DNA of 64,000 nt from Candidatus Micrarchaeia archaeon (GTDB lineage Archaea; Micrarchaeota; Micrarchaeia; Anstonellales; Anstonellaceae). Shown piece by piece: positions 2,974-60,998 of the stretch (its first letter is position 1; every line of letters begins with the position of its first letter). Below the pieces are notes generated by a model, which had not been told where the DNA came from, searched no databases, and worked only from the letters and a program-made list of their open reading frames with translations. Made by a program: the position numbers and the translations under genes. Where the stretch lies: NCBI GenBank assembly GCA_041650255.1, contig JBAZLL010000003.1, forward strand, positions 64,801 to 128,800. Direction: 5' to 3'.

Positions 2974-3522
2974 TTATGTGCACTCTTCTTTTTGCACTTC
3001 TCGATACTTCGTTACTGTATTACAAACTTGCTGATATTTTATCACATCTTTGCAAACTTGTTTTGTAGGTATGCTTGTTTCGTAACAGTAGCATGTAGAA
3101 CCTGATGCCTTTACTCTGTACTCAAAAGTATGTGATTGAAGAGGGTAGATATATGCTGTCTGTTCTTCTCCGTTTTTCTGTCCATTAATATCTACTCCTG
3201 CATATGCATTGAAACTTCCGGCTTCATCGTCCAGATTTGCAATAGAGCAAGAACTTACTATCCAATCCCCTATCAGTCCTTCATGGTTACAAATTATTTC
3301 TCCTTTTGTATATTTCAAATTTACTTGAGAACATTCGGTGTCGGTGTAAGGAACAGTATCGCATTCCTGATCATAATATGGCTCTTGAATCGTTTTTGTA
3401 GTGCATTTAGGCGTCTGAGTGGTTGTTGGTTGGGTTTCTGTCGTTTGCTTTGAAGCAAGACAGCCAAAAGAAAGTAAAAATATACCTACTATGAATAGAG
3501 AAATAATTGTTTTCATTGACAA
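2974..3522 (-). CDS. Secreted or lipobox-type Cys-rich protein. Function unknown.
   Basis: The N-terminus MKTIISLFIVGIFLLSFGC is a signal peptide with a lipobox-like SFGC. A T/Q/P linker (TTETQPTTTQTP) follows. The mature part contains many Cys residues. Confidence 0.6.
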   Translation of the reverse strand: MSMKTIISLFIVGIFLLSFGCLASKQTTETQPTTTQTPKCTTKTIQEPYYDQECDTVPYTDTECSQVNLKYTKGEIICNHEGLIGDWIVSSCSIANLDDEAGSFNAYAGVDINGQKNGEEQTAYIYPLQSHTFEYRVKASGSTCYCYETSIPTKQVCKDVIKYQQVCNTVTKYREVQKEECT

Positions 3523-3746
3523 ACCTCCTTGTAACCGTCAAGACATCTACAAGTATCACAATCACCTGTTAGCGAGGTATGGATACATTCACAACCCGTT
3601 GTTTGTTGGCAGTGATATTGATTTACTGTTTTATATTGCGGAACCTGTTGGCAATTTTTTCCTAATTTTTGTACTTCGCTAATACATCCTGCGCTCAGGA
3701 TAATAAGTGTCAATATTCCTAAAATCAACAATTTCATGTCATACAC
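3513..3746 (-). CDS. Small secreted or lipobox-type Cys-rich protein of 77 aa.
   Basis: The N-terminus MKLLILGILTLIILSAGC has a lipobox-like SAGC. There are about 10 Cys in roughly 55 mature residues. The gene overlaps the downstream gene by 10 bp, which suggests an operon. Confidence 0.5.
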   Translation of the reverse strand: MYDMKLLILGILTLIILSAGCISEVQKLGKNCQQVPQYKTVNQYHCQQTTGCECIHTSLTGDCDTCRCLDGYKEVCQ

Positions 3747-6757: not shown

Positions 6758-6868
6758 TTTGCGAATCAAAATCAGTCTGCGAAACAAAAACCAAAAAAAA
6801 AATTAGAATAAAATAACTAAAATAAAACAATTAAAATAAAATAACTAAAATAAAATAATTTTAGGCAT

Positions 6869-7183
6869 TTATCTTGGCTCTGCATCCGGGCAGAATTTTC
6901 TGAACGCCTCATAATGCATATCGTTTAGTCCTACTGCCATGTCATGCACTTGTCCAAGCTGGTCATACATCTTGAGTATCACGCTCACTTTTCCAAGCGG
7001 CAATTCCGAGACTTTTTCAATTTTTTTCACATAGCTAAACGGCGAGCGAATGAGCTTTCCATTGTATTTTACGACAATTCCGCCTTCGCATACATATATC
7101 GTCCCGTTTTGCTCAAATCCATCTTCATATATTGGATATGATTGAGAAACCATTCCAAAAATGCTGTCTTTCTGACTTGCCAT
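6869..7183 (-). CDS. Hypothetical small protein of about 104 aa.
   Basis: ORF 6869..7258. I prefer the internal ATG (MASQKDSIFG) because the longer form would leave only 9 bp for two divergent promoters. Confidence 0.4.
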   Translation of the reverse strand: MASQKDSIFGMVSQSYPIYEDGFEQNGTIYVCEGGIVVKYNGKLIRSPFSYVKKIEKVSELPLGKVSVILKMYDQLGQVHDMAVGLNDMHYEAFRKFCPDAEPR

Positions 7184-7267
7184 CAAAATCAACCCCTCAT
7201 AATCAGTAAAATATGCCAATTCACTTACAATCCTCAAATTTATATAGATTAAGCTCATCGCTTTAGC

Positions 7268-8911
7268 ATGGCAAAAAAGGCTCAGTCCTCAACAGAATAT
7301 CTTGCCACCTACGGGTGGGCTATGTTATTGCTCGTGCTTGTCGTCGCATTTTTGGTCGGCTCGGGCATTTTCAATCCTTCAAAATTTGCAAATGAGGAAT
7401 GCACAATACAACCGAATTTGCCCTGCACTGATTATTACGTCGCCGCATACGAAGGAAGAAGTGCATTAGATTTGTCCTTTAATGTTACAAACACCATGGG
7501 CTTTCCGATTGCAATAGTTGGCTATTCGGTTGAAGTGGATAAAATAGAAACCGTCAAATGCAATGAAGCATCATGCGGCTATTTCCTAAAGCAGGGCGAT
7601 TCGGCAGTAATAAACATGAACGATTTTCCCGCCGGATACGACTATACTGAAACCGATTTTGCAAAATTAAAAATAAATATCAAATTCAAAAACTGCAAAG
7701 GAATCGGCTCAACAAAATGCCTGTCCGATGCAACAATTCCAACTTACGAAACCGCCGGAAGAATAAACACTTACCCACGCGGGGTTCCAAGTGGCGGTGT
7801 AATCACACCCTCCTGCAATCTCGGAGCTCGAAGATGTATTGGCAATGTTGTACAAGCGTGCGCAGGCTACGTTCCAAACACATATTGGAAATCAATGGAA
7901 GATTGCGAACTCTCAAATAAAGTTTGCAAAGTGGAGAACGGAATTGCCGCATGCTATGGTAAAGAGGACAACGCATGTGAAGCCGACGAATCAAAATGCT
8001 ATGACAAAACCTACCGAGTCCCGTGCGATGGCGCCACGAACACTTGGGTGGATGTAGGCAGTCTCGGATTGGACAGCCAATGCCCAATGGGTATTTGCAA
8101 AGATATCACGACCTCTGATGGAAAACGCGGCACGCAGTGTGTTCCGGAATGTGATTCATCCTACAAGCCAAATTGCGTTGGAAGCGTTTCTTACACCTGC
8201 AACATGATGGCAGAGCGAATCACCTCCACCGATTGTGCCCTGACTCCCAATGGAGTTTGTGATGAAAACAGCGGAACATGCAAAGTGCAAGTGCACGTGG
8301 ATCTATGCGATGCTGACCATCTCGGAGAGAGAAAATGCAAAGGGGATATAGCTCAAGTATGCTCAGTAGAATGCTCCGGCATGGGACAGCCATTATGGTG
8401 CGACAAGGAGAACTGTGCGCAAAAGGGCGAAACATGCAATAACGGACTTTGCATAGCGGTTGTTCCCGAGGCATGCGAGCCTAATCAGGTGGGTTCAACA
8501 AGATGCAACAGCAAGGGAGATATAGAAAAATGTCTCTTATCCGGTACGTCGTTTGCCTGGTTGTCTGAAGACAAATGCTCTTCAAGAGGTGAAATATGCG
8601 TTGTTGGCAATCCTTGCGTTTGCCAAGAAGTCTGCGAACCCGGAAAATCGCGTTGCAAGGACGGCACCATACAAACATGCGGCACGGATAAAAAATGGGC
8701 TGAAGTTCAAGTCTGCGATTATTATTGCACATTAAAGGTCGATAATCCGGTTTGTGTGGAATGTATATACGCAACCCATTCAAGATGTGATCCCAATGAT
8801 ATCACCAAGCTTATTCATTGCGGTGCGGACTACACATGGAAAACCGGCACAACCGAACAGTGCAAAAACCTCTGTGTTTTCGACAGCCTCGATATGATGC
8901 ACTGCGAATAA
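7268..8911 (+). CDS. Large Cys-rich surface protein with an archaeal class III (type IV pilin-like) signal peptide. Putative pilin or adhesin.
   Basis: The N-terminus MAKKAQSSTEYLATYGWAMLLLVLVVAFLV fits the K-[GA]|Q-x-S-x-E-[FY]-L pilin or DUF361 pattern. The C-terminal approximately 370 aa form about 7 Cys-rich modules such as RRCIGNVVQAC...W...C...C...C. Confidence 0.65.
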   Translation: MAKKAQSSTEYLATYGWAMLLLVLVVAFLVGSGIFNPSKFANEECTIQPNLPCTDYYVAAYEGRSALDLSFNVTNTMGFPIAIVGYSVEVDKIETVKCNEASCGYFLKQGDSAVINMNDFPAGYDYTETDFAKLKINIKFKNCKGIGSTKCLSDATIPTYETAGRINTYPRGVPSGGVITPSCNLGARRCIGNVVQACAGYVPNTYWKSMEDCELSNKVCKVENGIAACYGKEDNACEADESKCYDKTYRVPCDGATNTWVDVGSLGLDSQCPMGICKDITTSDGKRGTQCVPECDSSYKPNCVGSVSYTCNMMAERITSTDCALTPNGVCDENSGTCKVQVHVDLCDADHLGERKCKGDIAQVCSVECSGMGQPLWCDKENCAQKGETCNNGLCIAVVPEACEPNQVGSTRCNSKGDIEKCLLSGTSFAWLSEDKCSSRGEICVVGNPCVCQEVCEPGKSRCKDGTIQTCGTDKKWAEVQVCDYYCTLKVDNPVCVECIYATHSRCDPNDITKLIHCGADYTWKTGTTEQCKNLCVFDSLDMMHCE

Positions 8912-8994
8912 TCTTTTCTCTTTCCTTTACTTACTTTTTTAAACTGTTTTCGCCTAATGTGCTACGGGTAAAAAGAAGGTTGGCGGTAGATAAA

Positions 8995-11900
8995 TTGTAT
9001 TACATAAGCAACATAAAATTCAAAGGCTTCAAATCATTCAAGAATGCGCAGGCACAATTTCCACAGGGCTTTGTGGCACTCGCGGGCCCAAACGGCTCGG
9101 GTAAATCAAATGTCGCCGACGCAATTCGTTTTTGTTTCGGAGAAATGGGCACAAAGGCAATTCGTGTCCGCCGCGCATCCGAACTAGTTAATCTCAATTC
9201 AACTCACGGCGAAGTGACAATCGTAATACAGCACTCAAAAGAGCAAGACAAAAAATTTGAAATAAACCGAACCATTAGCGCCGATGGAAAAACAGGATAC
9301 AAGCTCAACGGAAAAAGCATGACTCGCACAAACGTGCTTGAGGCATTGCGCCCCCACGGTCTTGAAGTCGGCACCCACAACATAATCGCGCAGGGACAAG
9401 TACAGCAAATAGTTGAAATGAATCCAAAGGACAGGCGCGCAATCATTGACCAGGCTGCCGGAATATCCGAATTTGACGACAAGAAAAAAGAGGCATTGGG
9501 CGAGCTTTCAAAAGTTGAGGCAAAAATTTCAGAGGCAAAAATCGTATTGGCGGAACGCGGTGCCTATCTTCTTGAATTGGAAAAAGAAAAAAATGCCGCC
9601 CTCTCGTATCAGGACGCAAAAACACTTCTTGAGCGCTCCCGTGCAACATTGCTTGGAATTGAATATACAAAACTCAACAACCAATTTGACGAACTTCTAA
9701 AATCAAAGGGCGAACTTGCAACTCAAATCGGCGCCCTTGACGAATCCCTCTCAAAGCTTTCAAAATCAAAAGAGGAGCTTGAGGCAAAGCGAAAAGAGCT
9801 TGCGGACAAGATGAGCCAAGGCGGACAGAAAGAGAGCCTTGTAAGCCAAATACAAGAGGCAAAAGTGCAAATCGCACAGCATCAAACTCTCATAACTCAA
9901 AAGCAGGAATCAATAAAGGATTTTGAAACCCAGCTTGCGACTCTGGCTCAAAAGAAAATGGATTTTGGTCGCCAGCTTGCTTCCACAAACGCACAGCTAA
10001 AACAAAAAGAGCAATATCTCATTACCCTAAAAAAAGAACTTGAACAGGCAAAGTTAAACGCGGGCATTTCGGAAGACGACACCACCCACTCATCGGGAAT
10101 TGACAAATTAAACGAAGAGCTTTCGGATGTTCGCGCGAATAAAGCTTCTACAATAGCAAAATGCGAAGGAATACAGGCGCTAATTGAGCACAAGGGCTCG
10201 CTGGCAAAAGAAACAGCCGCCGAGCTTGAGAAGCTCTCATCAACAAAAGGCTCGGACGAGCTTGAAAAAATGTCTGATGAAATAAAAGAATTAAATTCGC
10301 AGCTCACATCTCTTTTTGACAAGGAAAAGAAATTCAACCGCGACATTCCCGATTTGGATAGAAAGCTTCTTGAGGCAAAAGAGCGCGTTGCCGCATTGCG
10401 CGGTTCAGCCTCCCCGGTCGCAAGAAATCCCGCCCTTCTCACCGTACACGCTCTAAAGGAAGCGAAAATGGGCGGAATATATGGTCTTGTATCCGAACTC
10501 ATCAGCCTTGATGAAGAATATCAGCAGGCAGTTGAAGCATCCGCCGGCGGGCGCCTAAACTATGTAGTGGTGGATTCGCTTGATACAGCCGACACAATAA
10601 TTAAAAAATTAAAATCAGAAAAATCCGGAAGATGCTCATTCATTCCGCTTGACAAAATAATAATCGGGCGAAGTGCAAGCGAAAAATTGCCCCCAAGCGC
10701 TCTTGGGCGCATGATTGATTTCATCAAATATTCACCGGAGCTTGATAATGCAATGCGCTATGTCTTTGAGGACACGCTTCTTGTGAACGACGTTTCAACC
10801 GCGAAAAAAATCGGAATAGGCACATGGAGAATGGTGACACTCGGCGGCGAATTGCTTGAGCGCTCCGGAGTGATAAGTGGAGGAACAAACCGTTCAAGCC
10901 TGATGGCACGCTCTTCATTGCAAAAGGCGGAATCCGATGTGGATTCAATAAAATCCGAGCGCGATGCTCTCTACTCGGACCTTTATTCCGTGCGCGACGA
11001 AATGCAAAAATTGCGAAAAGAGCGAGCATCTGCCGAGCTTAAGCTTCGCACAAAAGAGGCGGAGCTTGGCGCCGGCGCAGACAGGCAGGCACGCACCCAA
11101 AAACTCAAAGAATCGCTTTTGGCGCATAACCAAGAGCTTGAAAAACAAAAATCCTCATTGCAGGAACTAACTTCCTCCATTCGCGAGCTTGAGAAAAAAG
11201 AACAATCACTTCTAAGCTCTCTTTGCGCGACAAAAGAAATGCAAGCAAAGCAAAAAGAAGAGTCCAAGAAAAAAGCCGGAGACAGCCAGAAAAAATACGA
11301 GGACGTTTTGGAAAAGCATTCTCAATTCCTCACAGACATAGACTCAAAGAAGCAGGAGTCAAACCTTTTGCAAACCCAAATAGACGAATCCGCACAAGAA
11401 CATTCCCGCGTTTTGGCTTCTCTTGAAGAATGCAAAAAACAAATAAAATCCAGCGAATCCGGCTTGAAGAAATCCGAATCCGAGCTTGCGAAATTTGAGC
11501 AGGCATTGCAGGAAGTCAGCGCTACCGTGAAAAAATATTATGCAAAAATGCAATCATTGCAGTCCGAGCTTGACACACTTGGTGCACAGGAAGGCAAGGC
11601 AAAATTTGAGCGCGATGCACTCGTGCGAACGCAAAACGAGGTAAATATAAAACACGCAACCATTGAGACAAAACTTGTGGATGTAAAGGCGGAATGGGAA
11701 AAATATGCAAGCGTGCAGGCATTTGACAATATTTCAAAATCCGAGCTTGAGCAAAACATCAAATCTTCCGAGGCAAAAATGAACGAGCTTGGCATGGTCA
11801 ATCTAAAGGCGCCCCAGCTTTATGACGAGAAAAAAGCCGAGCTTGAGGGAATCGGGCAAAAGGTCGGCACACTACAAAACGAGAAAGAGGCAGTTCTTTC

Positions 11901-12513: not shown

Positions 12514-13698
12514 CTAATTTTTCCACCACTTAACTACCTGTGTGGAATTCATTGACGCATTAATTGAGTAAATTCCATCAGAGCTTGCATTGACATAAAT
12601 GCTTCCAACCTTGTCTGTTCGGTGCAAATTCGCGCCGGAAATAAGTATTCTCTGCAATGTTGTATTACTGGGCAGTCCAAGCTTGTTTGCTCCCACGCTT
12701 ATTACGACCTCTTTCGGGTCAATCTTATCATAAACAATTGACGGAGTCGGCCTTCCCTCTCCGTTCTTTCTCCATTTGTAAACTGCGCATTGAGAGTTTA
12801 TTTTTCCAACAATCGGCGCTTCGGTCTCCTGTGTCAAATCGCTTGGTAAAAACGCGCAGAATTTGCCCATATTTATTTTCAGCACAATTGAATTCGCTTC
12901 CGCATAATTTGCATATTCGCTTTCTTGCGGATTTAGCACCTCAATCTCAAGTACTCCGTGCACAATCGCATCCCCCGCTTTTGGATTTACTACGAATGCC
13001 TCCCGCTTTTGCAATATTTCCATCGCATCCAATGCAAAAAATGACGAAGGCAATTCCTTGGAAACCCACACTTCATACACTGCAAATCTTTTGAGAATCG
13101 CATCCAGCCCGCCCGTTTTTTGCTCGCTCCAGGAAGAAATCACAAGCGCATCAATCTCGTCAACTCCAAGCTCTTTGAGCGTGTCGGATAGATTTTGTGC
13201 ATTCTGTGCAAGCCCCGTGTCAATAAGCATTGTGTAATCGGCAGTCTTCACAAGTGTCGCATCCCCCATTCCCACATCCAAAAAGAGCATTTTGATAGTT
13301 CCTTGTGCCTTCGCGCTTGTTTCTGTTTCGTTTAACAAAATTTGAGATTCATTTTGCGCGGTTCCATTTGTATTTATTGTTCCATTGCCTGCGCTCGCAT
13401 TGCCGACAACGCTGGCATTAATCATACTTGCATTCAAGCTTTCATTTCCAACAGTTGTATTGCTCCCGATTACAGGCGTATTATTTTGTGTTTGCACAGG
13501 CGTTGTTTGAGTAGGTGTGGTTTGCACTGGTGTGGTTTGAGTAGGCGTAGTTTGTCCAATTGGCTTTCCAATAATCACATCGTCCGGATTTGCCCGTGTC
13601 GGGTCTATTCCCGGAGCGGGCGCACCATAAGGAAACAATGCGCATCCACAAAGCATAAACGAGGCAAGAAGAACTGCCGCAATTACAACCATTCTCAT
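12514..13698 (-). CDS. Membrane or lipobox-anchored extracellular MBL-fold hydrolase resembling the ComEC/Rec2 C-terminal domain.
   Basis: The MBL signature LFLDVGMGDATLVKTADYTMLIDTG is the ComEC-type FLDVGQGD...LIDxG pattern. The N-terminus MRMVVIAAVLLASFMLCGC is lipobox-like. A TTPTQTTPVQ x2 linker follows, then a cluster of N-x-S/T sequons. Confidence 0.7.
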   Translation of the reverse strand: MRMVVIAAVLLASFMLCGCALFPYGAPAPGIDPTRANPDDVIIGKPIGQTTPTQTTPVQTTPTQTTPVQTQNNTPVIGSNTTVGNESLNASMINASVVGNASAGNGTINTNGTAQNESQILLNETETSAKAQGTIKMLFLDVGMGDATLVKTADYTMLIDTGLAQNAQNLSDTLKELGVDEIDALVISSWSEQKTGGLDAILKRFAVYEVWVSKELPSSFFALDAMEILQKREAFVVNPKAGDAIVHGVLEIEVLNPQESEYANYAEANSIVLKINMGKFCAFLPSDLTQETEAPIVGKINSQCAVYKWRKNGEGRPTPSIVYDKIDPKEVVISVGANKLGLPSNTTLQRILISGANLHRTDKVGSIYVNASSDGIYSINASMNSTQVVKWWKN

Positions 13699-13783
13699 AA
13701 GTGCAAAACAGAAGCATAAAATAAAAAGACAGCACACGCACTTTGCGCAAGCCATGCAGTAAAATACTCTTTCGCGATTTTTT

Positions 13784-52616: not shown

Positions 52617-53681
52617 TCATATAAGTTTGACAAGCCCGCGTCCGATCTCATTCAAATCCGCGCCAAGAATCGCGCCTGTTTGACGTATGAATGTAAATGT
52701 GATAATCAGCGCCACCATCGGGAAAAACATCGCCTGCAAATAAAATAGCGGGATGAAATTCTTTGCCTTGTAAATCAGGCTGGATACGTCTCCCGACCTT
52801 GCGCGCAATGCATCCGATGCCCTTTGTACTCCCTCAAGGCTCACCATATCATATCCCCTGCTCACATCCAGCATAGCCGGCGGAGCCCGAAACTCCGTGC
52901 AAAAAGATTCGCCCGGAGGCTGAAGGGTCATGAGCATTGCAAGGCTGATTGGGTACACTGCGAAAAATCCTATTCCCATCGCAAGGAGCATTCCTCCTGC
53001 GCCCCTGCTCATTGGAAATATCCTTAGTATAAGCCCGATTTGAAACATAAGCGGCGCGACATATTTCATTACCGACAAAAGTCTGATTTGTATCCAATGC
53101 AACAAAAGCAAAAAGTTCAAATGCCCTATAATATATTCAAACAGGCTGGTGTAAACAGTCGTGTACCATCCACCAAGCGGTTCCACTCCGAGCGTTTCTG
53201 TTTTTGTGGAGCCGACAAGTTTGTAATAAAAGTTCACGCTGTAAAGCACGCGATAAATATCCTGCTCGCAACTAATCATTGTTTCCACCAAAAATGCCTG
53301 TGAAAATCTAAACGGATCAAGCGTAACTTTTTGGTCTGTCGGGTCAATCCCCGCATCTCTTGCATTTTGCGCAAGCACCGGGCTTGAGAAATAAGTTTGA
53401 GTTACCACGCCGGACATAACGCTCCAGGTAAGTCCCACAAGCGCCACGAGCATTCCAGCAAGCAGGAATGTGACTATCACCTGCATATATTCTCCCTTTG
53501 CCCACAAACGCAGAGAATTGATATTGAATGCAATTCCAATCATCTGCAAAAGCACAACTACAAGCAGGCTGATAAGCCCAATCACCAAAATGTTTGACGA
53601 CCACGCAAGCCAGCCCGGGCTGGCAAAAAGCGCATTCAAAAATTGTGGGCTTGCAACCAAGTCTGCTCCAGTTATCATCAA
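52617..53681 (-). CDS. Paralog family member F (354 aa). Polytopic membrane protein of unknown family.
   Basis: Shares the family motifs SLRLWAKGEYMQV (after TM1), GVEPLGGW, and the core IQIRLL...FQIGLILRIFPMSRGAGGMLLAMGIGFFAVYP. The C-terminal tail is GADLNEIGRGLVKLI. Confidence 0.7.
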   Translation of the reverse strand: MMITGADLVASPQFLNALFASPGWLAWSSNILVIGLISLLVVVLLQMIGIAFNINSLRLWAKGEYMQVIVTFLLAGMLVALVGLTWSVMSGVVTQTYFSSPVLAQNARDAGIDPTDQKVTLDPFRFSQAFLVETMISCEQDIYRVLYSVNFYYKLVGSTKTETLGVEPLGGWYTTVYTSLFEYIIGHLNFLLLLHWIQIRLLSVMKYVAPLMFQIGLILRIFPMSRGAGGMLLAMGIGFFAVYPISLAMLMTLQPPGESFCTEFRAPPAMLDVSRGYDMVSLEGVQRASDALRARSGDVSSLIYKAKNFIPLFYLQAMFFPMVALIITFTFIRQTGAILGADLNEIGRGLVKLI

Positions 53682-53730
53682 ATCATCCGATTAATTTTAC
53701 CATTTTGTTTTAAGCCTGTGCAAAGTGCCA

Positions 53731-54951
53731 TCAAATCATCCTTGTCAGGTTTGTCAAATCCATCTCGGTTCCAAGGAAAGTCGTAAGCGACCTTGCAACC
53801 TCAACATATATTACCAAATTAATAATGGGCAATATTACCGCCGCAATAACATACAAAAGCGCAATCTGATAAGGCCAGAAAACAGTTTGCGCAAATTTTT
53901 CTATCTGAGTGTCATCTCCTCTTTCCTGGGGGTTTGCAAATGCAAAGAAATTCACGACATTTTTCTCAACTGTTGCATCCTGTTTTTGCTCAACCAGCGC
54001 AGGCTTTTGAGGGTTTGGCTCATACATTCCAAACTCCTCATTAATTTGCTCCGCTCCCTCTTTCGGGCTGAAGAGTTCCTCACTCGGCGTCTGGCCTGTT
54101 AATACTGACTCCTCGCCCACCGAAAGCCTTTGCGCTTCTTCCTGTGCGCTCTTTGTAAATTGGTCAAACGAGGAATACACAATCAAATCATTCGCCATCA
54201 ATACGAGTGGATAATAAAAGAGCGAAGCAATTCCAAACCCAAGCAGTGCGCCTCCAAACTCGCGGGTAGGCTCAAATGTTCTCATAAGCAACCCGAGCGG
54301 AAGCATATAATACGGCACCGCCAAAAGGAAAAAGTCCAAAATTCTCATTTGTATAAGCACGCTCAAATAAGCGAGTATAAATCCGCTCACGCCAACAAGA
54401 AAAACATTCATCAATTGCTGAAATCCGGCAAGAGGTTCAATAGCATATCCTATTCCCATAGGGCTTGAATTCCACGTCAATTTGAAAATATATGAAAACG
54501 CCCCATTAAGCATTATCAGCACTTGGAAAATATCGTCTCCTCTCACCTTCACTTTCTGCAAAAATGCCTGCGATGCGCAAAACGGCGTAAGAGTGGGTGT
54601 GCCATACGCCGAGCACGCCTGCAAATTTTCCGCTATGATTTCTTCCGCTCCCGCCCCTTCGGACCATTTATACAAAAATGCAACATTCCAATTGCACATT
54701 CCATAAACCCATCCCGCAAGCAATATCGCGATTATCGCAGTGGCAAGCACTTGAAACATTTCAAATCTGCACCAAGCCTCAAGCTTTGAAATTCTCAACA
54801 GCTGGGATGCAAAATACGTCAGAATCAAAAAGAACGAGGTGCCAAGCAGTGCCACAAACACAAGCCCGAGCCAATTTCCTCCAAGCACATTATCAAAAAT
54901 CGCCGGCGTAAGGGAAGCGTCAAGCGACCTGCAATATGTCGGTATGTCCAT
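53731..54951 (-). CDS. Paralog family member E (406 aa). Polytopic membrane protein with an acidic/Q-rich insert.
   Basis: Family motifs: KLEAWCRFEMFQV, IEPLAGF, and the core IQMRIL...LPLGLLMRTFEPTREFGGALLGFGIASLFYYP. The C-terminal tail is GTEMDLTNLTRMI. Confidence 0.7.
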   Translation of the reverse strand: MDIPTYCRSLDASLTPAIFDNVLGGNWLGLVFVALLGTSFFLILTYFASQLLRISKLEAWCRFEMFQVLATAIIAILLAGWVYGMCNWNVAFLYKWSEGAGAEEIIAENLQACSAYGTPTLTPFCASQAFLQKVKVRGDDIFQVLIMLNGAFSYIFKLTWNSSPMGIGYAIEPLAGFQQLMNVFLVGVSGFILAYLSVLIQMRILDFFLLAVPYYMLPLGLLMRTFEPTREFGGALLGFGIASLFYYPLVLMANDLIVYSSFDQFTKSAQEEAQRLSVGEESVLTGQTPSEELFSPKEGAEQINEEFGMYEPNPQKPALVEQKQDATVEKNVVNFFAFANPQERGDDTQIEKFAQTVFWPYQIALLYVIAAVILPIINLVIYVEVARSLTTFLGTEMDLTNLTRMI

Positions 54952-54960
54952 TCATTACAC

Positions 54961-56562
54961 CTAAAATATTTTTTCAAACATGCTCAAATCAATCTCTGTT
55001 CCCAGCAGTTTTGTGAACTCCTTAATCATTGTAAGCGTTATGAAAATATTGAATAATGGCACAAGTATTGAAACTATAAGCACATAAAACACTGTCGTTG
55101 AAATAAGCGTCAGCATATACGTTGCCAAAAATATCGTAATCAGCGAAGAGGGTAGCGAGCCTGTGACAAACTGAAGCAGACCAAACGCAAGCAATGTGCC
55201 CCATCCCGCGTTTTGTATAAATTCTTTTAAGAAAGTAAGCGCGCCGAAAGTGGACAGCTTGAAAAAGCACACCGCTCCCTGCCCCTGTTTACTGCTAAAA
55301 TCCGCACACGCCTTGTAATTATCAAATACCTCGTCGCTTCCGCTTAGTTGCACTATTTTCCCCTCATTCCCAACCCAGTCTGAAACGGAACGTTGCCCTG
55401 CAAATTGTGCATACAAATAATTCTCAAGTGCAATCGCGCTCACGTTCAACACGAACGGGAACACAAAGAAAAATCCGATTGCAATCGCAATAAGTACATT
55501 CCCAACTCTTTCAACTCCAAATGAGCGCAAAAAGAGTCCGAGGGGCACAAGCACAATCATCAGCCGTGTTTGCACAAACATCAAAAACCAAAGTTGCACA
55601 TACCATGCGCCAACCGCAACCGCTAGTGATGAGAGCATCATTCCAAGCGAATCAAAAATCGGTCTGAAAGCCGGTGCAAATGAAAACGATATTCCGATAA
55701 CTCCTGCCGGTCTAAAATACGGTGTAAGATTTCCAATCATTGACAAAAATGCGGTAATTGAGGTCATTGTTACGAACTCATAAATAATCGTGTTTCTCAC
55801 GGTTTCCGCAAAATTAATCGCGCTGTCAATTTGGAAAAGACCGATTCCAAGCGCATTTTTCGTCTCGTGAATACTCACAAGCACAAATGCGCTTGAGAGC
55901 ACGGTCAAAATAAGAAGCGACTTTGCGACATTTGACAAAAACTGCTTTGACCATGCCTGTATTCTCGCGCCGAGAATTCCAGACAGCATATATCCCAGTG
56001 TGCCAAAAACCGCCAATATAAGCAGTACCTTATACGCCAAATCAATCCATCCATAATCCGGCTGGTATATGTCTCCCGAATTTGTGTGCGGGCTCCACAT
56101 CTCCTGTGTAAAAACATCTGGAATAAGCCAGCCAAACATTTTTGCACTCGGCACCCCTGATGCGACAAACAGCACGACTGTTAGGCAGGCAATCAGCAAA
56201 AATTTATTTTTCATTCCAAAATTTTGCACGGCCTCCACTGATTTGACAATAGGCGAATCTTCAGAAATTTTCCAGCCGCCCGCATTTTCCAATTCAAATT
56301 TCTTATAATTTTTTTCCAGCTTTTTCGTGCTCTTCATTTCAAAAAATCCCTTAATAATTTTTTTATCATCGCTTTTATTTTGTATCCCGTCCAAATTTTC
56401 CAATCCGTATTTTTTTTCATCTTTTGCGGGCTCGTTCGCATATTCAGATACCTTTTGTGTTTTATCTTCAGACGCCCCACTAATTTGTTCATACGCGCCG
56501 ACAATTTCTCTATCCAAATTCGCGCCATCGCCTTTTTCTTTCATCCTGTCGGTTTTTTCCAT
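54961..56562 (-). CDS. Paralog family member D (533 aa). It has a hydrophilic N-terminal approximately 120 aa followed by a polytopic membrane domain.
   Basis: Family motifs: IQAWSKQFLSNV, and the core VQLWFL...VPLGLFLRSFGVERVGNVLIAIAIGFFFVFP. The C-terminal tail is GTEIDLSMFEKIF. Confidence 0.7.
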   Translation of the reverse strand: MEKTDRMKEKGDGANLDREIVGAYEQISGASEDKTQKVSEYANEPAKDEKKYGLENLDGIQNKSDDKKIIKGFFEMKSTKKLEKNYKKFELENAGGWKISEDSPIVKSVEAVQNFGMKNKFLLIACLTVVLFVASGVPSAKMFGWLIPDVFTQEMWSPHTNSGDIYQPDYGWIDLAYKVLLILAVFGTLGYMLSGILGARIQAWSKQFLSNVAKSLLILTVLSSAFVLVSIHETKNALGIGLFQIDSAINFAETVRNTIIYEFVTMTSITAFLSMIGNLTPYFRPAGVIGISFSFAPAFRPIFDSLGMMLSSLAVAVGAWYVQLWFLMFVQTRLMIVLVPLGLFLRSFGVERVGNVLIAIAIGFFFVFPFVLNVSAIALENYLYAQFAGQRSVSDWVGNEGKIVQLSGSDEVFDNYKACADFSSKQGQGAVCFFKLSTFGALTFLKEFIQNAGWGTLLAFGLLQFVTGSLPSSLITIFLATYMLTLISTTVFYVLIVSILVPLFNIFITLTMIKEFTKLLGTEIDLSMFEKIF

Positions 56563-56564
56563 AT

Positions 56565-58277
56565 CTATATCAGCCTGCTCAAGCCCGCAATTTCAATGTC
56601 TCCGCCAAGTGAGGGGGATAATACCTTTATTGATGCCAACGCAACCATTAGTGAAATAAATGGCGCAATAAGGCTAAATATCAGCAGTTTTGCCATGTTA
56701 TCAATCGTTCCGTTTTCGCCAAAAAGTGAATAGCCCCCTCCTGCAACCGCTCCGACTCCAACAAGCGGGCCGACCGCATCGGCAAATCCCTGCGAATATC
56801 CCTGCCAAAGCCTCTTTTCCCAGCTTTCCCTTTTAATCTCAAGAAAAGAGTTCACTTCATCTTCCCCGGTATCTTTCGTATAACATATATCCACAATCAT
56901 TTTTGTCTGCTCATCAAGCAATCCGTCTTCATTAACAAATTCTTGCCTGAAATTTGAATAAGTGTTCATATCAGAAGTGCATCTGCACGAATTCTCATTG
57001 CAATAATAATCCGTTTCCCTGCCGGAAATAGTATTTCCATATTCATCTCTTGGCGGACAGGAAAGCCCATACTCGCCGCATTCCTCTCCTTCATCAATTT
57101 CTCCGTTCTTGCAAAGCGGGCTATAATCCGGCGCACCCTTAACCGCCTGCACTTGGTCTCTTTCCACTCCTTCAAAATTTATGTCTGTGCGATAAATGTT
57201 ATATCCTATCTGCTCAATCTGCGCAGGTGTGCTGTTCCACGGACCGGTAAACGAATAGAGCACCGAGCTCCAAAACACATACATCATCGGAAACACAATG
57301 TAAAATCCTATCGCCAATGCAATAAGAAGCCCGCCCAGCCTTCGCGTGAAATACATTGAGCGGAAAAATATCCCTGCCGCCAAAAAGAACGGGAAAAATG
57401 CCAAATGCATAAAATCAATGATAAACTGCTGTGCCCGCGTAATCATCAAATTTTTCATCAGCACATCAAACACAAAGCTCAACGTTTCCACAACGGGCGT
57501 AAGCCCGGCAAGCGGCGAAACCGAGAGCGCGCCTCCCGGTGCGGGTATTCCCTTAAAGCCAAATCCTGCCGTTGAAAGCGGATATAAAATCGCATTGATT
57601 CTTACAATTGAGAGTGCCTGCCCTTCGGTTGATTTTGCCAGTATATTCAAATAATCCTCGGCGATGATAATATGACACGGTCTTTCTTTCCCCTGTGTCA
57701 GCGGCGAGCCGGAATCTGACGGATAGCATCTTGCATTCACATACGCGCTCCATTTCAGCCCGATATTTTCAACGCCGTTAATTGTCGGTGAATCTCCGAG
57801 CGTATTATATGTCGGCAGGCTCGCGCAAATTATCCCAAGCGAATTTACAATCATCAATATGCCCATCAAAATCAATGCCGTATATCCAAGCTGAATAATT
57901 TCTGATTTTACCCACGCTTTGAGCTTGTCATCCTGCATAAAGCTTGCATAAAACCACGAGAGCGTGCAAATCGCAATTCCTATTCCTAATGCTGCGGCAA
58001 TCGGGGCGCTCCAAATCCCCCACCAAAGCCCGAACTTTTCGCTTATTCCCCCGTCCTGTCCGCTTGATTGATCAACGCAACCGGACATGAAAAATAAAAT
58101 CGCAAACATTGCCGCAAACAAAATCGGCTTCAACCGCGCATTTCTCAATGCTTCAAACGCATTCAAATTCGGCGCATTCAAAATTTTATTTGCATTTTTT
58201 TGCAAAGCATCCACTGGCGCATCTTTGTGCAAAAACGATTTTTCATTTTCATCTGATTTTGCTTTTTTCATTTTCAT
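56565..58277 (-). CDS. Paralog family member C (570 aa). It has a lipobox-like N-terminus and a Cys-rich insert.
   Basis: Family motifs: KLKAWVKSEIIQL, VSPLAGLTPV, and the core QQFIIDF...LAAGIFFRSMYFTRRLGGLLIALAIGFYIVFP. The insert is CKNGEIDEGEECGEYGLSCPP...YYCNENSCRC. The C-terminal tail is GGDIEIAGLSRLI. Confidence 0.7.
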   Translation of the reverse strand: MKMKKAKSDENEKSFLHKDAPVDALQKNANKILNAPNLNAFEALRNARLKPILFAAMFAILFFMSGCVDQSSGQDGGISEKFGLWWGIWSAPIAAALGIGIAICTLSWFYASFMQDDKLKAWVKSEIIQLGYTALILMGILMIVNSLGIICASLPTYNTLGDSPTINGVENIGLKWSAYVNARCYPSDSGSPLTQGKERPCHIIIAEDYLNILAKSTEGQALSIVRINAILYPLSTAGFGFKGIPAPGGALSVSPLAGLTPVVETLSFVFDVLMKNLMITRAQQFIIDFMHLAFFPFFLAAGIFFRSMYFTRRLGGLLIALAIGFYIVFPMMYVFWSSVLYSFTGPWNSTPAQIEQIGYNIYRTDINFEGVERDQVQAVKGAPDYSPLCKNGEIDEGEECGEYGLSCPPRDEYGNTISGRETDYYCNENSCRCTSDMNTYSNFRQEFVNEDGLLDEQTKMIVDICYTKDTGEDEVNSFLEIKRESWEKRLWQGYSQGFADAVGPLVGVGAVAGGGYSLFGENGTIDNMAKLLIFSLIAPFISLMVALASIKVLSPSLGGDIEIAGLSRLI

Positions 58278-59348
58278 CTAATCCCATTTTTGTGAAAAGA
58301 ATTTCATTCCCGCTTTTATGAACGTGACTACGAGAATCATATTCATCGCGGGCAAAAATACTGCCTGAAACGCAATATACGAAAGCGTTTTTGTCATCCC
58401 GTCATTTCCAATAAAATCCTCCTTTATACTCGGAAGCATTTGCACGCTCAAACTATTATAGAACGAGCCGCTCGTGAAAAGATAATCCGTTGTGGACGAT
58501 TCCATCCCGCTGCACATATCACATCCATACTCCTCAACATAAAGCTGTGTCATTATCTGCGCATTCATCACAAATGCAAATGGCATAACGAAATAAAGTG
58601 CGAACGCGGTTGCCATCAAAAACGAACCGGCATCCCTTGTGGGCGAAAACACTCTCATGATAATTCCCGCGGGCAAAATCAAAGTCATCGCGCTCGCGTG
58701 AATTAATTGCAATCCCATCTGTTGCACCATTATGCTTGCCGCAAACGGCGTGATGAACATCACAATCAAATCAATCGCGCGGTCAATCACGTCAAAGCCT
58801 GGAAATGTCGGAAAAGAAAATCCCCATCCTGCCGCCGCTGCATAAAATCTGCTTTTCATTCCCGCCAAATACTGCACTCCAATTTTTACTCCCTCAAGTT
58901 TTATCGTGGTGGCGCTTGTAATGCATGTAACTTTTTGCAGATAATTGTTTGCCAAATCAAAACTGCTTGCGCCCCAATGGTCCGTCACTATCTTGTCTAC
59001 AACAACCGCGCTTGAGAAAATAAGAATTCCGATAAGTATACTAATCGTTACCTGATACAATTCGCTGTTTGCATAAGTTTCCCATTCGGCGTTTTTCACC
59101 GATTTTGATATCATATGTACAAGCGACGCGATAAAAATAACTGCCGCAATGCAGAGTATCGTCATATTTGAAAGCGATTGATAATCCGGCGCGGAAAGAA
59201 AATTCTCATCCCCTAAATTCGGAATTCCCGCGCCCGGATTTTGCGCAAAAACAAATGGCATGAGCATTGCAAGCACAATAGCAATCGCAAATATTGCAAG
59301 CGCTCCATTGCGCAAAATTCTGTCATTGCACAAAATTTCATCCTTCAT
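58278..59348 (-). CDS. Paralog family member B (356 aa). Signal-peptide-like N-terminus and polytopic membrane domain.
   Basis: Family motifs: AEWETYANSELYQV, and the core VQQMGLQLI...LPAGIIMRVFSPTRDAGSFLMATAFALYFVMP. The C-terminal tail is divergent. Confidence 0.7.
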   Translation of the reverse strand: MKDEILCNDRILRNGALAIFAIAIVLAMLMPFVFAQNPGAGIPNLGDENFLSAPDYQSLSNMTILCIAAVIFIASLVHMISKSVKNAEWETYANSELYQVTISILIGILIFSSAVVVDKIVTDHWGASSFDLANNYLQKVTCITSATTIKLEGVKIGVQYLAGMKSRFYAAAAGWGFSFPTFPGFDVIDRAIDLIVMFITPFAASIMVQQMGLQLIHASAMTLILPAGIIMRVFSPTRDAGSFLMATAFALYFVMPFAFVMNAQIMTQLYVEEYGCDMCSGMESSTTDYLFTSGSFYNSLSVQMLPSIKEDFIGNDGMTKTLSYIAFQAVFLPAMNMILVVTFIKAGMKFFSQKWD

Positions 59349-59351
59349 CTT

Positions 59352-60863: not shown

Positions 60864-60886
60864 TGTCCAGAATTAGGTTTGTTTGC

Positions 60887-60894
60887 TTTTAAAA
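60887..60894 (-). promoter_or_regulatory. TATA-like box for the six-paralog operon.
   Basis: TTTTAAAA lies 24-31 nt upstream of the ATG at comp. 60863. This spacing recurs at other genes in the window. Confidence 0.4.
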
Positions 60895-60942
60895 CCAAAC
60901 CTCACCTGTGTCTATCACTGCATTTTTTATCTGCATCAAGGA

Positions 60943-60964
60943 TTCGGGCGCTAACCCGCCCGAA
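60943..60964. promoter_or_regulatory. GC-rich inverted repeat (8-bp arms, 6-nt spacer) in the divergent control region. Candidate operator.
   Basis: The sequence is TTCGGGCG-CTAACC-CGCCCGAA. It ends 5 nt upstream of the plus-strand TATA box, which is the BRE-proximal position. Confidence 0.4.
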
Positions 60965-60969
60965 AACCA

Positions 60970-60979
60970 TTTATAAAAA
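60970..60979 (+). promoter_or_regulatory. TATA box for the giant plus-strand gene.
   Basis: TTTATAAAAA starts 29 nt upstream of the GTG at 60999. This geometry is compatible with a leaderless transcript. Confidence 0.45.
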
Positions 60980-60998
60980 CCGCCTGCTTATTTATTGC

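What the first reader, a model, noticed from the sequence alone, without database searches (positions are those of the whole stretch)
7268..8911. Pilin-like class III signal peptide fused to about seven Cys-rich repeat modules
The N-terminus MAKKAQSSTEYLATYGWAMLLLVLVVAFLV fits the archaeal prepilin-peptidase substrate pattern: a basic residue, a small residue, Q at +1, then S-x-E-Y-L and a hydrophobic helix. The mature protein is unusually large for a pilin, at about 540 aa. Its C-terminal two thirds consist of about seven modules, each roughly 45-55 aa with 5-6 Cys. Examples are RRCIGNVVQACAGYVPNTYWKSMEDCELSNKVCKVENGIAAC, ERKCKGDIAQVCS..., KSRCKDGTIQTCGTDKKWAEVQVCDYYC... and HSRCDPNDITKLIHCGADYTWKTGTTEQCKNLC. 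This looks like a pilus-tip or pilus-anchored adhesin. No pilus ATPase or PilC-like gene is adjacent.
Basis: partly seen in the sequence, partly recalled or inferred. Interest (0 to 1): 0.6.

Follow-up and report, generated by a model that had tools for sequence, protein, structure and literature searches.

The report
Modular archaeal pilin with cysteine-rich tail
A tiny symbiotic-type archaeon (Micrarchaeota, from a landfill metagenome) encodes a pilus-subunit-like protein whose outer end is a string of seven small disulfide-locked domains of a previously undescribed type; it is most likely an attachment protein, an interesting but not revolutionary variant of the known 'modular pilin' design.

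Summary
The ORF at 7268-8911(+) is real: 547 aa with the quoted N-terminus and 51 Cys.

Residues 1-~175 belong to a large, unannotated DPANN family of ~170-aa proteins (1786 hits). Across 101 homologs the class III processing motif is invariant: K/R at -2, G/A/S at -1, Q at +1, E/D at +5. AlphaFold gives an N-terminal helix plus a beta-sandwich (pLDDT 90). Its best matches, by fold and by sequence profile, are solved archaeal type IV pilins (8FK7 at E=1e-4, Aap pilin 8Q30 at E=7e-4).

Residues 180-547 form seven six-Cys modules. Five are statistically related by sequence and two only by Cys spacing. One module folds confidently (pLDDT 95) into a small beta-sheet domain. It has no Pfam or PDB relative and only a weak fold likeness to pacifastin inhibitors.

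Orthologs occupy the same slot (small divergent gene | pilin | SMC) in eight Micrarchaeota genomes, with a conserved core and a fast-changing tail. Other family members carry LamG, beta-helix, Ig or fibrinogen-like tails instead.

Best reading: a modular minor pilin that acts as an adhesin. The genome-wide search for the peptidase and the assembly motor could not be run because the tool was shut.

The parts
7239..7246 (+). TATA box TTTATATA, centred about 25 nt upstream of the ATG. This implies a leaderless or near-leaderless transcript and supports ATG 7268 as the true start.
   Evidence: Sequence read. The spacing rule for archaeal promoters is established knowledge. This is inferred, not measured.
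7268..8911 (+). Whole gene: a 547-aa modular pilin-like protein, stop codon included.
   Evidence: an identical Logan contig
7268..7282 (+). Predicted leader peptide MAKKA (residues 1-5), with the predicted cleavage between A5 and Q6.
   Evidence: Motif conservation in 101 homologs; criteria from PMC4371748. Cleavage itself was not shown.
7283..7363 (+). Mature N-terminal hydrophobic helix (residues 6-32: QSSTEYLATYGWAMLLLVLVVAFLVGS), with E at +5 and the invariant Y-G-W.
   Evidence: AF2 helix 6-32; conservation; hydropathy
7364..7777 (+). Globular pilin domain (residues 33-170): a beta-sandwich with three local Cys pairs (45/53, 98/103, 143/151).
   Evidence: AF2 pLDDT 89.9; Foldseek top hit 8fk7; profile hits to 8fk7 and 8q30; Cys 143/151 co-occur in 37 sequences, are both absent in 64, and never occur singly
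7778..7804 (+). Low-confidence linker (residues 171-179: RGVPSGGVI).
   Evidence: pLDDT falls to 67 and then 52 over the last two 10-residue blocks of the model
7805..7954 (+). Cys-rich module 1 (residues 180-229, 6 Cys). It is the most consensus-like module and is positionally conserved in all orthologs.
   Evidence: iE 2e-17; invariant C183, C190, C198, W207, C213, C220 and C229 in the three closest orthologs
7964..8140 (+). Cys-rich module 2 (residues 233-291, 6 Cys). It is divergent and supported only by Cys spacing.
   Evidence: iE 0.73
8141..8281 (+). Cys-rich module 3 (residues 292-338, 6 Cys). It is divergent and supported only by Cys spacing.
   Evidence: iE 2.2
8294..8452 (+). Cys-rich module 4 (residues 343-395, 8 Cys).
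   Evidence: iE 5e-11
8462..8623 (+). Cys-rich module 5 (residues 399-452, 7 Cys).
   Evidence: iE 2e-12
8624..8755 (+). Cys-rich module 6 (residues 453-496, 6 Cys). This is the module that was modelled: five beta-strands.
   Evidence: iE 5e-15; pLDDT 94.8
8756..8908 (+). Cys-rich module 7 (residues 497-547, 6 Cys), a divergent C-terminal module.
   Evidence: iE 0.014
8912..8945 (+). T-rich stretch after the stop codon, of archaeal oligo-T terminator type. The SMC gene begins near 8995.
   Evidence: sequence; SMC N-terminus mapped; termination is inferred
6872..7183 (-). Conserved divergently transcribed small gene. It is about 104 aa if it starts at MASQKD; the 129-aa ORF reaching 7258 is probably over-extended. 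It lies next to the pilin slot in all nine loci examined and has no known family.

Best explanation
This gene encodes a modular type IV pilin-like protein of a Micrarchaeota (DPANN) archaeon. Shown or strongly supported: the precursor has a five-residue leader (MAKKA) ending in the archaeal prepilin-peptidase motif K-A|Q, with E at +5. A ~27-residue hydrophobic helix follows, then a ~140-residue beta-sandwich homologous to solved archaeal type IV pilins. After a short flexible linker comes a ~365-residue tail of seven small beta-sheet modules, each with six Cys (eight in module 4, seven in module 5). [quoted passage not shown] The helix then docks into the core of an Epd-like (system 1) type IV filament built mainly from the short ~170-aa members of the same family. 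Because the tail is bulky, the protein would sit at the tip or be a rare subunit. The disulfide-locked modules would form a robust stalk or binding surface that contacts a host cell or a surface. The tail is the fast-evolving, exchangeable part, and the pilin core is the conserved adaptor.
For: The motif is conserved in 101 of 101 homologs: K/R at -2, G/A/S at -1, Q at +1, E/D at +5, followed by invariant Y-G-W. These are the archaeal prepilin criteria and the EppA-substrate signature described in PMC4371748 and PMC2910488. An exhaustive phmmer search finds 1786 relatives, nearly all 150-200 aa and aligned to residues 3-170, so the N-terminal third is a free-standing pilin-sized unit. AF2 gives pLDDT 89.9 with a helix at 6-32 plus a beta-sandwich. 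The top Foldseek hit is the Pyrobaculum type IV pilus subunit 8fk7 (E=2.2e-4), and the Aap pilin 8q30 is also listed. An independent profile search gives 8fk7 at E=1e-4 and 8q30 at E=7e-4. Cys counts are even in 94 of 101 members, and Cys 143/151 co-occur strictly, which implies extracellular disulfides. The tail modules are a true homologous unit with a confident compact fold (pLDDT 94.8). Other long family members carry NosD/beta-helix, LamG, fibrinogen-C or Big_1/invasin tails, all typical ligand-binding or adhesin domains; LamG is also the add-on of the bacterial modular pilin PilC (PMC8179133). The core is 33-56% identical among orthologs, against 25-35% for the tail, where most of the shared residues are Cys; tails vary from 186 to 419 aa. 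The same slot is conserved in eight genomes. The gene has its own TATA box and a T-rich terminator. Scattered pilin genes, with the motor encoded elsewhere, are the rule in DPANN, and most such genomes carry an ATPase, a platform protein and a peptidase (PMC13705601).
Against: No prepilin peptidase, assembly ATPase or platform gene was demonstrated in this genome: the whole-genome search was shut, and none lies in the 64-kb window. There is no expression, processing or filament evidence, and no RNA runs were found. Pfam PF04021 (Class_IIIsignal) does not hit the protein, and only 3 of 49 relatives hit it weakly. TM-scores to solved pilins are low (0.36/0.45), partly because of the orientation of the helix relative to the globular domain. 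Class III signal peptides also occur on non-filament proteins such as bindosome binding proteins. The tail's binding function is purely inferred, and its only weak structural neighbours are protease inhibitors.
Confidence: 0.6

Rival explanations
1. It is a cell-surface protein that uses the class III signal only for export and anchoring, in the manner of a bindosome or pseudopilus. It would be processed by the prepilin peptidase but stay at the membrane or in a very short stub. There it would present the Cys-rich tail as part of the cell envelope rather than on a long pilus.
For: Archaeal class III signals are common on non-pilin binding proteins (PMC13705601). Membrane-associated pilins can promote adhesion without assembled pili (PMC4371748). 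No motor genes lie nearby. The gene is a stand-alone unit among housekeeping genes.
Against: The N-terminal third is not just a signal. It is a full pilin-type helix plus beta-sandwich, homologous to filament-forming pilins, and it is shared with roughly 1700 short, pilin-sized proteins.
Confidence: 0.25
2. The tail is an array of small disulfide-rich protease-inhibitor-like domains, analogous to pacifastin. It would protect the cell surface or the pilus, or interfere with host proteases, rather than mediate adhesion.
For: The best Foldseek PDB neighbours of the modelled module are all pacifastin-type inhibitors: 2xtt_A, 2f91_B, 2vu8_I, 1gl1_I and 7sgq_F. They show TM-scores (target-normalised) of 0.6-0.73 and rmsd of 1.5-3.0 A over 26-33 columns. 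Pacifastin itself is a tandem array of six-Cys domains (my own knowledge).
Against: The E-values are not significant (0.19 to about 1). The Pfam scan of the whole protein returned no family at all at E<=10, hence no pacifastin model either. The Cys spacing differs from what I recall of pacifastin (from memory, not tested). There is no conserved reactive-loop motif, and the module profile finds nothing in the PDB by sequence.
Confidence: 0.05
3. It is an ordinary Sec-type signal peptide or an uncleaved N-terminal signal anchor on a secreted Cys-rich protein, and the pilin resemblance is incidental.
For: A charged N-terminus followed by a hydrophobic stretch is also the plan of Sec signals. Pfam and NCBIfam give no pilin annotation.
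Against: The K/R-G/A/S-Q...E motif is invariant before the hydrophobic segment in 101 of 101 homologs. The helix continues into the folded domain. There are significant profile matches to two solved archaeal pilins.
Confidence: 0.05

Closest known systems
EppA-processed Epd pilins of Methanococcus maripaludis (DUF361 / Pfam PF04021 class; archaeal T4F 'system 1')
   Same: Both have a short basic leader ending in K/R-G/A, an invariant Gln at +1 and Glu at +5, followed by a hydrophobic helix. PMC13705601 reports system-1-type pilins in 1990 DPANN genomes.
   Different: PF04021 does not hit the protein. The motif is Q-x-S/A-x-E-[YF]-L-x-T-Y-G-W-A rather than QXSXEXXXL. This protein is three times pilin size and has a Cys-rich tail. 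The major Epd pilin is described as lacking a globular domain, whereas this family has a beta-sandwich.
Bacterial modular pilins (Streptococcus sanguinis PilB with a vWA module and PilC with a ConA/LamG lectin module; Raynaud et al. 2021, PMC8179133)
   Same: The architecture is the same: a pilin module, a short linker and a grafted functional module or modules. The predicted location at the tip and the adhesion role also match. Sister proteins of the present family carry LamG, as PilC does.
   Different: The pilin core here is archaeal (beta-sandwich, K-A|Q site), not the bacterial IPR012902 alpha/beta pilin fold. The grafted part is seven copies of an undescribed six-Cys domain. The text searches of that paper found no mention of archaea; its survey was keyed on the N-terminal IPR012902 motif and is described for bacteria.
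Solved archaeal type IV pilins: the Pyrobaculum calidifontis pilus subunit (PDB 8FK7) and the Sulfolobus acidocaldarius Aap pilin (PDB 8Q30)
   Same: Both have an N-terminal helix plus an Ig-like beta-sandwich. Profile E-values are 1e-4 and 7e-4, and Foldseek E-values are 2e-4 and 8e-3.
   Different: Sequence identity is only about 10-17%. Those are ~140-aa shaft subunits without C-terminal modules, they come from Thermoproteota, and their processing sites are not of the Q(+1) type (the Aap sites are RALS).
Sulfolobales bindosome substrate-binding proteins (class III signal fused to a functional domain)
   Same: An archaeal precedent for a class III signal and N-terminal helix fused to a large functional extracellular part, encoded away from the assembly genes.
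   Different: Those carry ABC-type solute-binding domains and sit beside transporters. Here there is a true pilin beta-sandwich and a Cys-rich repeat tail, and no transporter is nearby.
Pacifastin-family serine protease inhibitor domains (for example SGPI-1, SGTI, PMP-C)
   Same: Both are small, three-disulfide, antiparallel beta-sheet domains that occur in tandem arrays. They are the best structural neighbours of the module.
   Different: The match is not significant (E>=0.19) and there is no sequence or HMM match. The Cys spacing differs, and the module has five strands and a conserved Trp.

Membership tests
Archaeal type IV pilin-like proteins (class III signal peptide proteins) | The processing site precedes the hydrophobic domain: a charged residue at -2, G/A/S at -1, and a short leader. 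| tested here: met
   In the target the site is K4-A5|Q6 with a 5-aa leader. Across 101 homologs K/R at -2 and G/A/S at -1 are found in 101 of 101. The criteria are quoted from PMC4371748.
Archaeal type IV pilin-like proteins (class III signal peptide proteins) | An N-terminal hydrophobic alpha-helix followed by a globular, usually beta-rich, domain. | tested here: met
   The AF2 model has pLDDT 89.9, a helix at 6-32 and strands from 44 to 168.
Archaeal type IV pilin-like proteins (class III signal peptide proteins) | Detectable homology to experimentally established pilins. | tested here: met
   The profile of 101 sequences against the PDB gives 8fk7_A at E=1e-4 and 8q30_A at E=7e-4. The Foldseek top hit is 8fk7_A at E=2.2e-4.
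Archaeal type IV pilin-like proteins (class III signal peptide proteins) | A cognate A24-type prepilin peptidase, a VirB11-type ATPase and a TadC/FlaJ platform protein in the same genome. | not tested
   The genome search and the fetch from genomes were shut. None of these genes lies in the 64-kb window. The only leads are an unverified first-reader note of a 'preflagellin peptidase' elsewhere in this genome and a literature statement that most DPANN genomes carry these genes.
Archaeal type IV pilin-like proteins (class III signal peptide proteins) | Actual cleavage by the peptidase and incorporation into a filament. | not testable with these tools
   This needs mass spectrometry and electron microscopy. 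No RNA or proteome data were found.
DUF361 / Pfam PF04021 (Class_IIIsignal, EppA substrates) | The motif QXSXEXXXL with Q at +1. | tested here: inconclusive
   The target reads Q-S-S-T-E-Y-L-A-T. Q(+1), S(+3) and E(+5) are present, but the Leu is at +7, not +9. The family consensus is Q-A-A-I-E-Y-L-M-T. The motif is taken from PMC2910488.
DUF361 / Pfam PF04021 (Class_IIIsignal, EppA substrates) | A match to the Pfam HMM at the gathering threshold. | tested here: not met
   There is no hit even at E<=10, for the whole protein or for its first 44 aa. Only 3 of 49 relatives hit, at E>=0.37.
Modular pilins (sensu Raynaud et al. 2021) | An N-terminal pilin module joined by a short linker to one or more extra, independently folding modules not specific to pilus biology. 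| tested here: met
   The pilin module spans 1-170, a low-pLDDT linker spans 171-179, and seven modules span 180-547. Caveat: that definition was built on bacterial IPR012902 pilins.
Pacifastin inhibitor domain | A match to the family HMM and its Cys pattern. | tested here: not met
   No Pfam family matches at E<=10, and there is no PDB sequence match for the module profile. There is only a non-significant fold likeness.

The most novel reading that the evidence does not exclude
Together with its ever-present small divergent partner gene, the slot upstream of SMC is a dedicated, lineage-wide 'display cassette' of Micrarchaeota. A conserved pilin adaptor presents a rapidly diversifying array of a new disulfide-rich domain family. 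That tail is the determinant of host-cell recognition for these episymbionts, that is, a host-range device. The small cytoplasmic partner would act as its dedicated regulator or export factor.
Probability: 0.2. Interest if true: 0.65.

Novelty: new variant of a known kind. Interest (0 to 1): 0.42.

Why it matters
DPANN archaea such as Micrarchaeota live attached to other cells, yet how they recognise and hold on to hosts is largely unknown.

This gene shows that the 'graft a binding module onto a pilin' design, documented for bacteria, is also used in these archaea. It is built on a very large pilin family (about 1800 representatives) that current domain databases do not annotate at all.

It also defines a new, compact six-cysteine domain that folds confidently and could be expressed and tested.

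The conserved core with a variable tail, at a fixed genomic slot, gives a concrete candidate for host-contact specificity. That candidate can be tested by binding assays, by structure determination, and by cryo-ET in the few Micrarchaeota co-cultures that exist.

Tried and rejected
- **Domain databases.** Pfam and NCBIfam scans of the whole protein and of its first 44 aa gave nothing, even at E<=10.
- **PDB by sequence.** phmmer of the whole protein against the PDB gave nothing.
- **Tail homologs.** A word-index homology search restricted to the tail (residues 180-547) returned only the query itself.
- **Own contig.** The look-up of encoding contigs for the protein itself reported 'not on record', so the contig beyond the window could not be annotated.
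- **Context of short homologs.** Two short homologs (P0053, P0166) are singletons among housekeeping genes, which says nothing about the machinery.
- **Two-module alignment.** An alignment of two modules for structure prediction (A5) was misaligned in its first half and was abandoned in favour of the single-module alignment A6.
- **Other module searches.** A fold search of the module against viral predicted structures gave no significant hit. The module profile against the PDB gave only chance-level sushi and LDL-receptor hits.
- **Small divergent gene.** It has no Pfam or PDB relative.
- **FlaFind paper.** The original paper (PMC1797317) is not held. The FlaFind-style regex I ran is therefore from memory and is offered only as a lead.
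- **Earlier findings by sequence.** The search of earlier findings by sequence found no look-alike.
- **Rejected idea.** I rejected a functional link to the downstream SMC gene. In L010 the SMC gene has moved to the other side and the other strand, while a pilin gene still occupies the slot beside the small gene.
Full report
**Observation**

The ORF at 7268..8911 on the + strand is open. It contains 51 Cys, 6 in residues 1-182 and 45 in residues 183-547 (12.3% of the tail).

The tail divides into seven modules, at residues 180-229, 233-291, 292-338, 343-395, 399-452, 453-496 and 497-547.
- They are 44-59 aa long and carry 6, 6, 6, 8, 7, 6 and 6 Cys.
- The recurring spacing is C-x6-9-C-x7-10-C-x11-18-C-x3-7-C-x6-13-C.
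- A loose regular expression for this spacing matches 5 times, against a mean of 1.4 and a maximum of 4 in 2000 composition-preserving shuffles.

Support for the modules as a repeated unit is uneven.
- Modules 1, 4, 5 and 6 are clearly similar to each other, with Smith-Waterman z of about 3-8 against shuffled partners.
- After HMM iteration on orthologs, module 7 becomes marginally significant (iE 0.014).
- Modules 2 and 3 are supported only by their Cys pattern.
- An HMM trained only on this protein's modules 1, 4, 5 and 6 detects independent modules in other proteins: P0011 at 8e-8, P0017 at 1e-6 and P0008 at 1.4e-6.
- The iterated module HMM, searched against 2482 six-frame fragments of the window and all fetched loci, hits only the orthologous genes.

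The repeats are therefore real. An identical 20-kb contig in Logan's independent assembly of a landfill metagenome run covers 6800-9300 without a difference. This is probably the source sample, so it is not independent biological support.

**The N-terminal third is a pilin-sized unit from a very large unannotated family**

Curated libraries are silent on the protein: Pfam, NCBIfam and PDB phmmer give no hits. An exhaustive phmmer search of 1.84 billion representatives nevertheless finds 1786 relatives at E<=1e-3. Nearly all of the listed ones are 150-200 aa long and align to query residues ~3-170.

Source names place them in Micrarchaeota/Anstonellales, Aenigmatarchaeota, Altiarchaeota, Nanohaloarchaeota and Marsarchaeota. 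They are labelled 'hypothetical protein', apart from two LamG-domain members, one of them named as such.

In an alignment of 101 of them, the following positions are conserved:
- position -2 is K/R in 101 of 101;
- position -1 is G/A/S in 101 of 101;
- position +1 is Gln in 101 of 101;
- position +5 is Glu/Asp in 101 of 101;
- Y-G-W at +10 to +12 is invariant;
- the leader is usually 3-10 residues long.

These are the criteria given for archaeal prepilin-peptidase substrates: G/A/S at -1, a charged residue at -2, and a site that precedes the hydrophobic domain. The Q(+1)/E(+5) pair is the signature of EppA-type substrates of Methanococcus (PMC4371748; PMC2910488).

Cys counts in the family are even in 94 of 101 members. 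Cys143 and Cys151 are either both present (37 sequences) or both absent (64), and never occur singly. This is what disulfide pairs in an exported domain would give.

**Structure of the core**

With the 101-sequence alignment, AlphaFold2 gives a confident model (pLDDT 89.9, pTM 0.76). It has a helix at 6-32 followed by a beta-sandwich (strands 44-168), with confidence falling after residue ~170.
- The best Foldseek match in the PDB is the Pyrobaculum calidifontis type IV pilus subunit 8FK7 (E=2.2e-4). The Sulfolobus Aap pilin 8Q30 is also listed. The remaining hits are generic Ig-like sandwiches.
- Independently, a sequence profile of the family against PDB sequences gives the same two archaeal pilins as its only hits below E=1e-3: 8fk7_A at 1e-4 and 8q30_A at 7e-4.
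- TM-scores are modest (0.36/0.45), with a large rmsd that reflects the orientation of the helix relative to the globular domain.

I take the convergence of motif, fold and profile as good evidence that residues 1-170 are a genuine archaeal type IV pilin module.

**The tail module**

I aligned 21 significant modules from the window and from orthologous loci. C2 to C6 are invariant, Trp is nearly invariant, and the consensus is xxCxxGxxRCx(n)Cx(n)Wx5Cx(n)Cx(n)C.
- AlphaFold2 folds module 6 (residues 454-497) with pLDDT 94.8 into a compact domain of five short strands.
- No PDB or viral structure matches significantly.
- The top PDB neighbours are consistently pacifastin-type protease inhibitors (E 0.19 to about 1; target-normalised TM-scores 0.6-0.73 over 26-33 columns).
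- The module profile finds nothing in the PDB by sequence.
- Neither this protein nor five other tail-bearing relatives match any Pfam family.

The module is best described as an undescribed small disulfide-rich beta domain. I could not obtain model coordinates, so its disulfide connectivity remains undetermined. The total of 45 tail Cys is odd, so at least one Cys is unpaired or makes an intermolecular bond.

**Relatives and context**

Orthologs lie in the same slot in eight Micrarchaeota assemblies: RMMBL-type hydrolase gene (+), small ~104-aa gene (-), pilin gene (+), SMC (+).
- The core is 33-56% identical among orthologs. The tail is only 25-35% identical, largely through shared Cys. Tails range from 186 to 419 aa and from 20 to 45 Cys.
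- In one rearranged genome (L010) the SMC gene lies elsewhere. The slot beside the small gene there holds two short tail-less pilins of the same family.
- Other long family members carry quite different tails: NosD/beta-helix, LamG, fibrinogen-C-like and Big_1/invasin-like.

The pattern is a conserved pilin adaptor with exchangeable extracellular modules, all of ligand-binding or adhesin type.

The gene has its own TATA box (TTTATATA, 7239-7246, about 25 nt before the ATG), which suggests a leaderless transcript. A T-rich stretch follows the stop codon. The upstream 129-aa ORF is probably over-extended: homologs begin at the equivalent of MASQKD (7183), which leaves an 84-bp divergent promoter region.

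**Mechanism proposed**

Shown: the architecture, the conservation, the homology and the fold.

Inferred:
1. Sec-dependent membrane insertion.
2. Cleavage between A5 and Q6 by an A24-type class III signal peptidase that accepts Gln at +1.
3. Docking of the helix into an Epd-like (system 1) filament, whose shaft is made of short family members.
4. A position at the tip, or as a rare subunit, because of the bulky tail.
5. The seven disulfide-locked modules acting as a sturdy stalk or binding surface for a host cell or substrate.

I put about 0.9 on 'class III-signal pilin-family protein with an extracellular disulfide-rich tail'. I put about 0.6 on the full pilus-borne adhesin model. The main rival (0.25) is a membrane-proximal, bindosome-like display without a long filament. 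A protease-inhibitor array and an ordinary Sec signal are each at about 0.05.

**What could not be done**

Within the 64-kb window I found none:
- no P-loop protein of VirB11 type;
- no multi-TM protein with a GxGD motif;
- no Pfam hit among the multi-TM ORFs.

There are two leads only. Earlier unverified notes of this scan mention a 'preflagellin peptidase' and a seven-gene pilin cluster elsewhere in the same genome. A 2026 survey reports that in DPANN the T4F genes are scattered, that most genomes carry an ATPase, a platform protein, pilins and a peptidase, and that 1990 genomes encode system-1 (Epd-like) pilins (PMC13705601). The absence of adjacent machinery is therefore expected and is not evidence against the model.

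**Comparison with what is known, and novelty**

The protein works like a modular pilin as defined for bacteria (S. sanguinis PilB and PilC; PMC8179133). It carries an Epd/EppA-type processing motif.

It is not a member of Pfam PF04021 by HMM (tested, not met), and the QXSXEXXXL motif is only partly met. Membership of the broader class of archaeal type IV pilin-like proteins is met for motif, architecture and homology. It is untested for the cognate machinery and untestable here for processing and assembly.

The new elements are these:
- a very large DPANN pilin-core family that is absent from domain databases;
- an undescribed six-Cys domain that forms the tail;
- a fixed genomic slot with a conserved small partner gene.

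Similar 'pilin core plus Cys-rich tail' genes at another slot (S7/EF-2) have already been noted in this scan, so the theme recurs in Micrarchaeota. I rate this a new variant of a known kind, with moderate interest (0.42).

Noticed in passing
L001 6041-6043 (also L007): The ortholog in Micrarchaeota assembly GCA_043802645.1 has a single in-frame TAG after codon 350. The same frame stays open for 246 more codons, which encode further Cys-rich modules; the separately called 187-aa gene is just its tail. It could be a nonsense mutation, a sequencing error or read-through, and this is undecided.
   Followed up: partly
window 6872-7183 (-); L001 4599-4904, L002 130-441, L008 5336-5647, L009 5588-5893, L010 5576-5887, L011 5601-5894, L012 5611-5901: A small (~104-aa) cytoplasmic-looking protein is transcribed divergently from the pilin gene in all nine loci, including the rearranged L010. 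It is more conserved (55-72% identity) than the pilin core and has no Pfam or PDB relative. It may be a dedicated partner or regulator.
   Followed up: partly
L010 5935-7066 (+): In this Micrarchaeota genome the slot beside the small gene holds two tandem short (198- and 180-aa) tail-less pilins of the same family instead of one tail-bearing gene. SMC lies on the other side, on the opposite strand.
   Followed up: partly
window 52617-60863 (-) and 60879-63998 (+): Six consecutive multi-TM ORFs (353-570 aa) and a divergent giant ORF have no Pfam match at E<=0.01. Earlier notes of this scan already describe them as a six-paralog membrane operon with a giant partner.
   Followed up: partly
window 2974-3516 (-) and 3513-3737 (-): Two small ORFs (180 aa with 6% Cys; 74 aa with 12% Cys) have lipobox-like signal peptides (…FGC, …AGC) and no Pfam family. 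They may be further small Cys-rich secreted proteins. They do not contain the tail module.
   Followed up: partly
window 7268-8911: The protein has an odd number of Cys: 51 in total and 45 in the tail, with 8 in module 4 and 7 in module 5. At least one Cys must therefore be free or form an intermolecular disulfide.
   Followed up: no
proteins P0010, P0012, P0127, P0133, P0150, P0261, P0267 (relatives, not in the window): The same pilin core is fused in other DPANN archaea to NosD/right-handed beta-helix, LamG, fibrinogen-C-like or Big_1/invasin-like domains. P0010 and P0012 also have an acidic PGDGE-type linker and a Cys-rich segment before the beta-helix.
   Followed up: partly
window 12514-13755 (-): A secreted 413-aa protein has a TPxQT-repeat linker and a weak metallo-beta-lactamase match (21 bits, below the Pfam cut-off). 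It resembles a ComEC-type extracellular nuclease or hydrolase and lies next to SMC. It appears conserved in the related loci: a gene of similar size and orientation follows SMC in L001 and L002.
   Followed up: no
L006 2729-3397 (-): A 222-aa protein with a Kazal_1 protease-inhibitor domain (precomputed Pfam) lies near a short family pilin on a 542-kb metagenome contig (ENA/NCBI); its taxon was not checked. It is another small disulfide-rich inhibitor-type domain.
   Followed up: no
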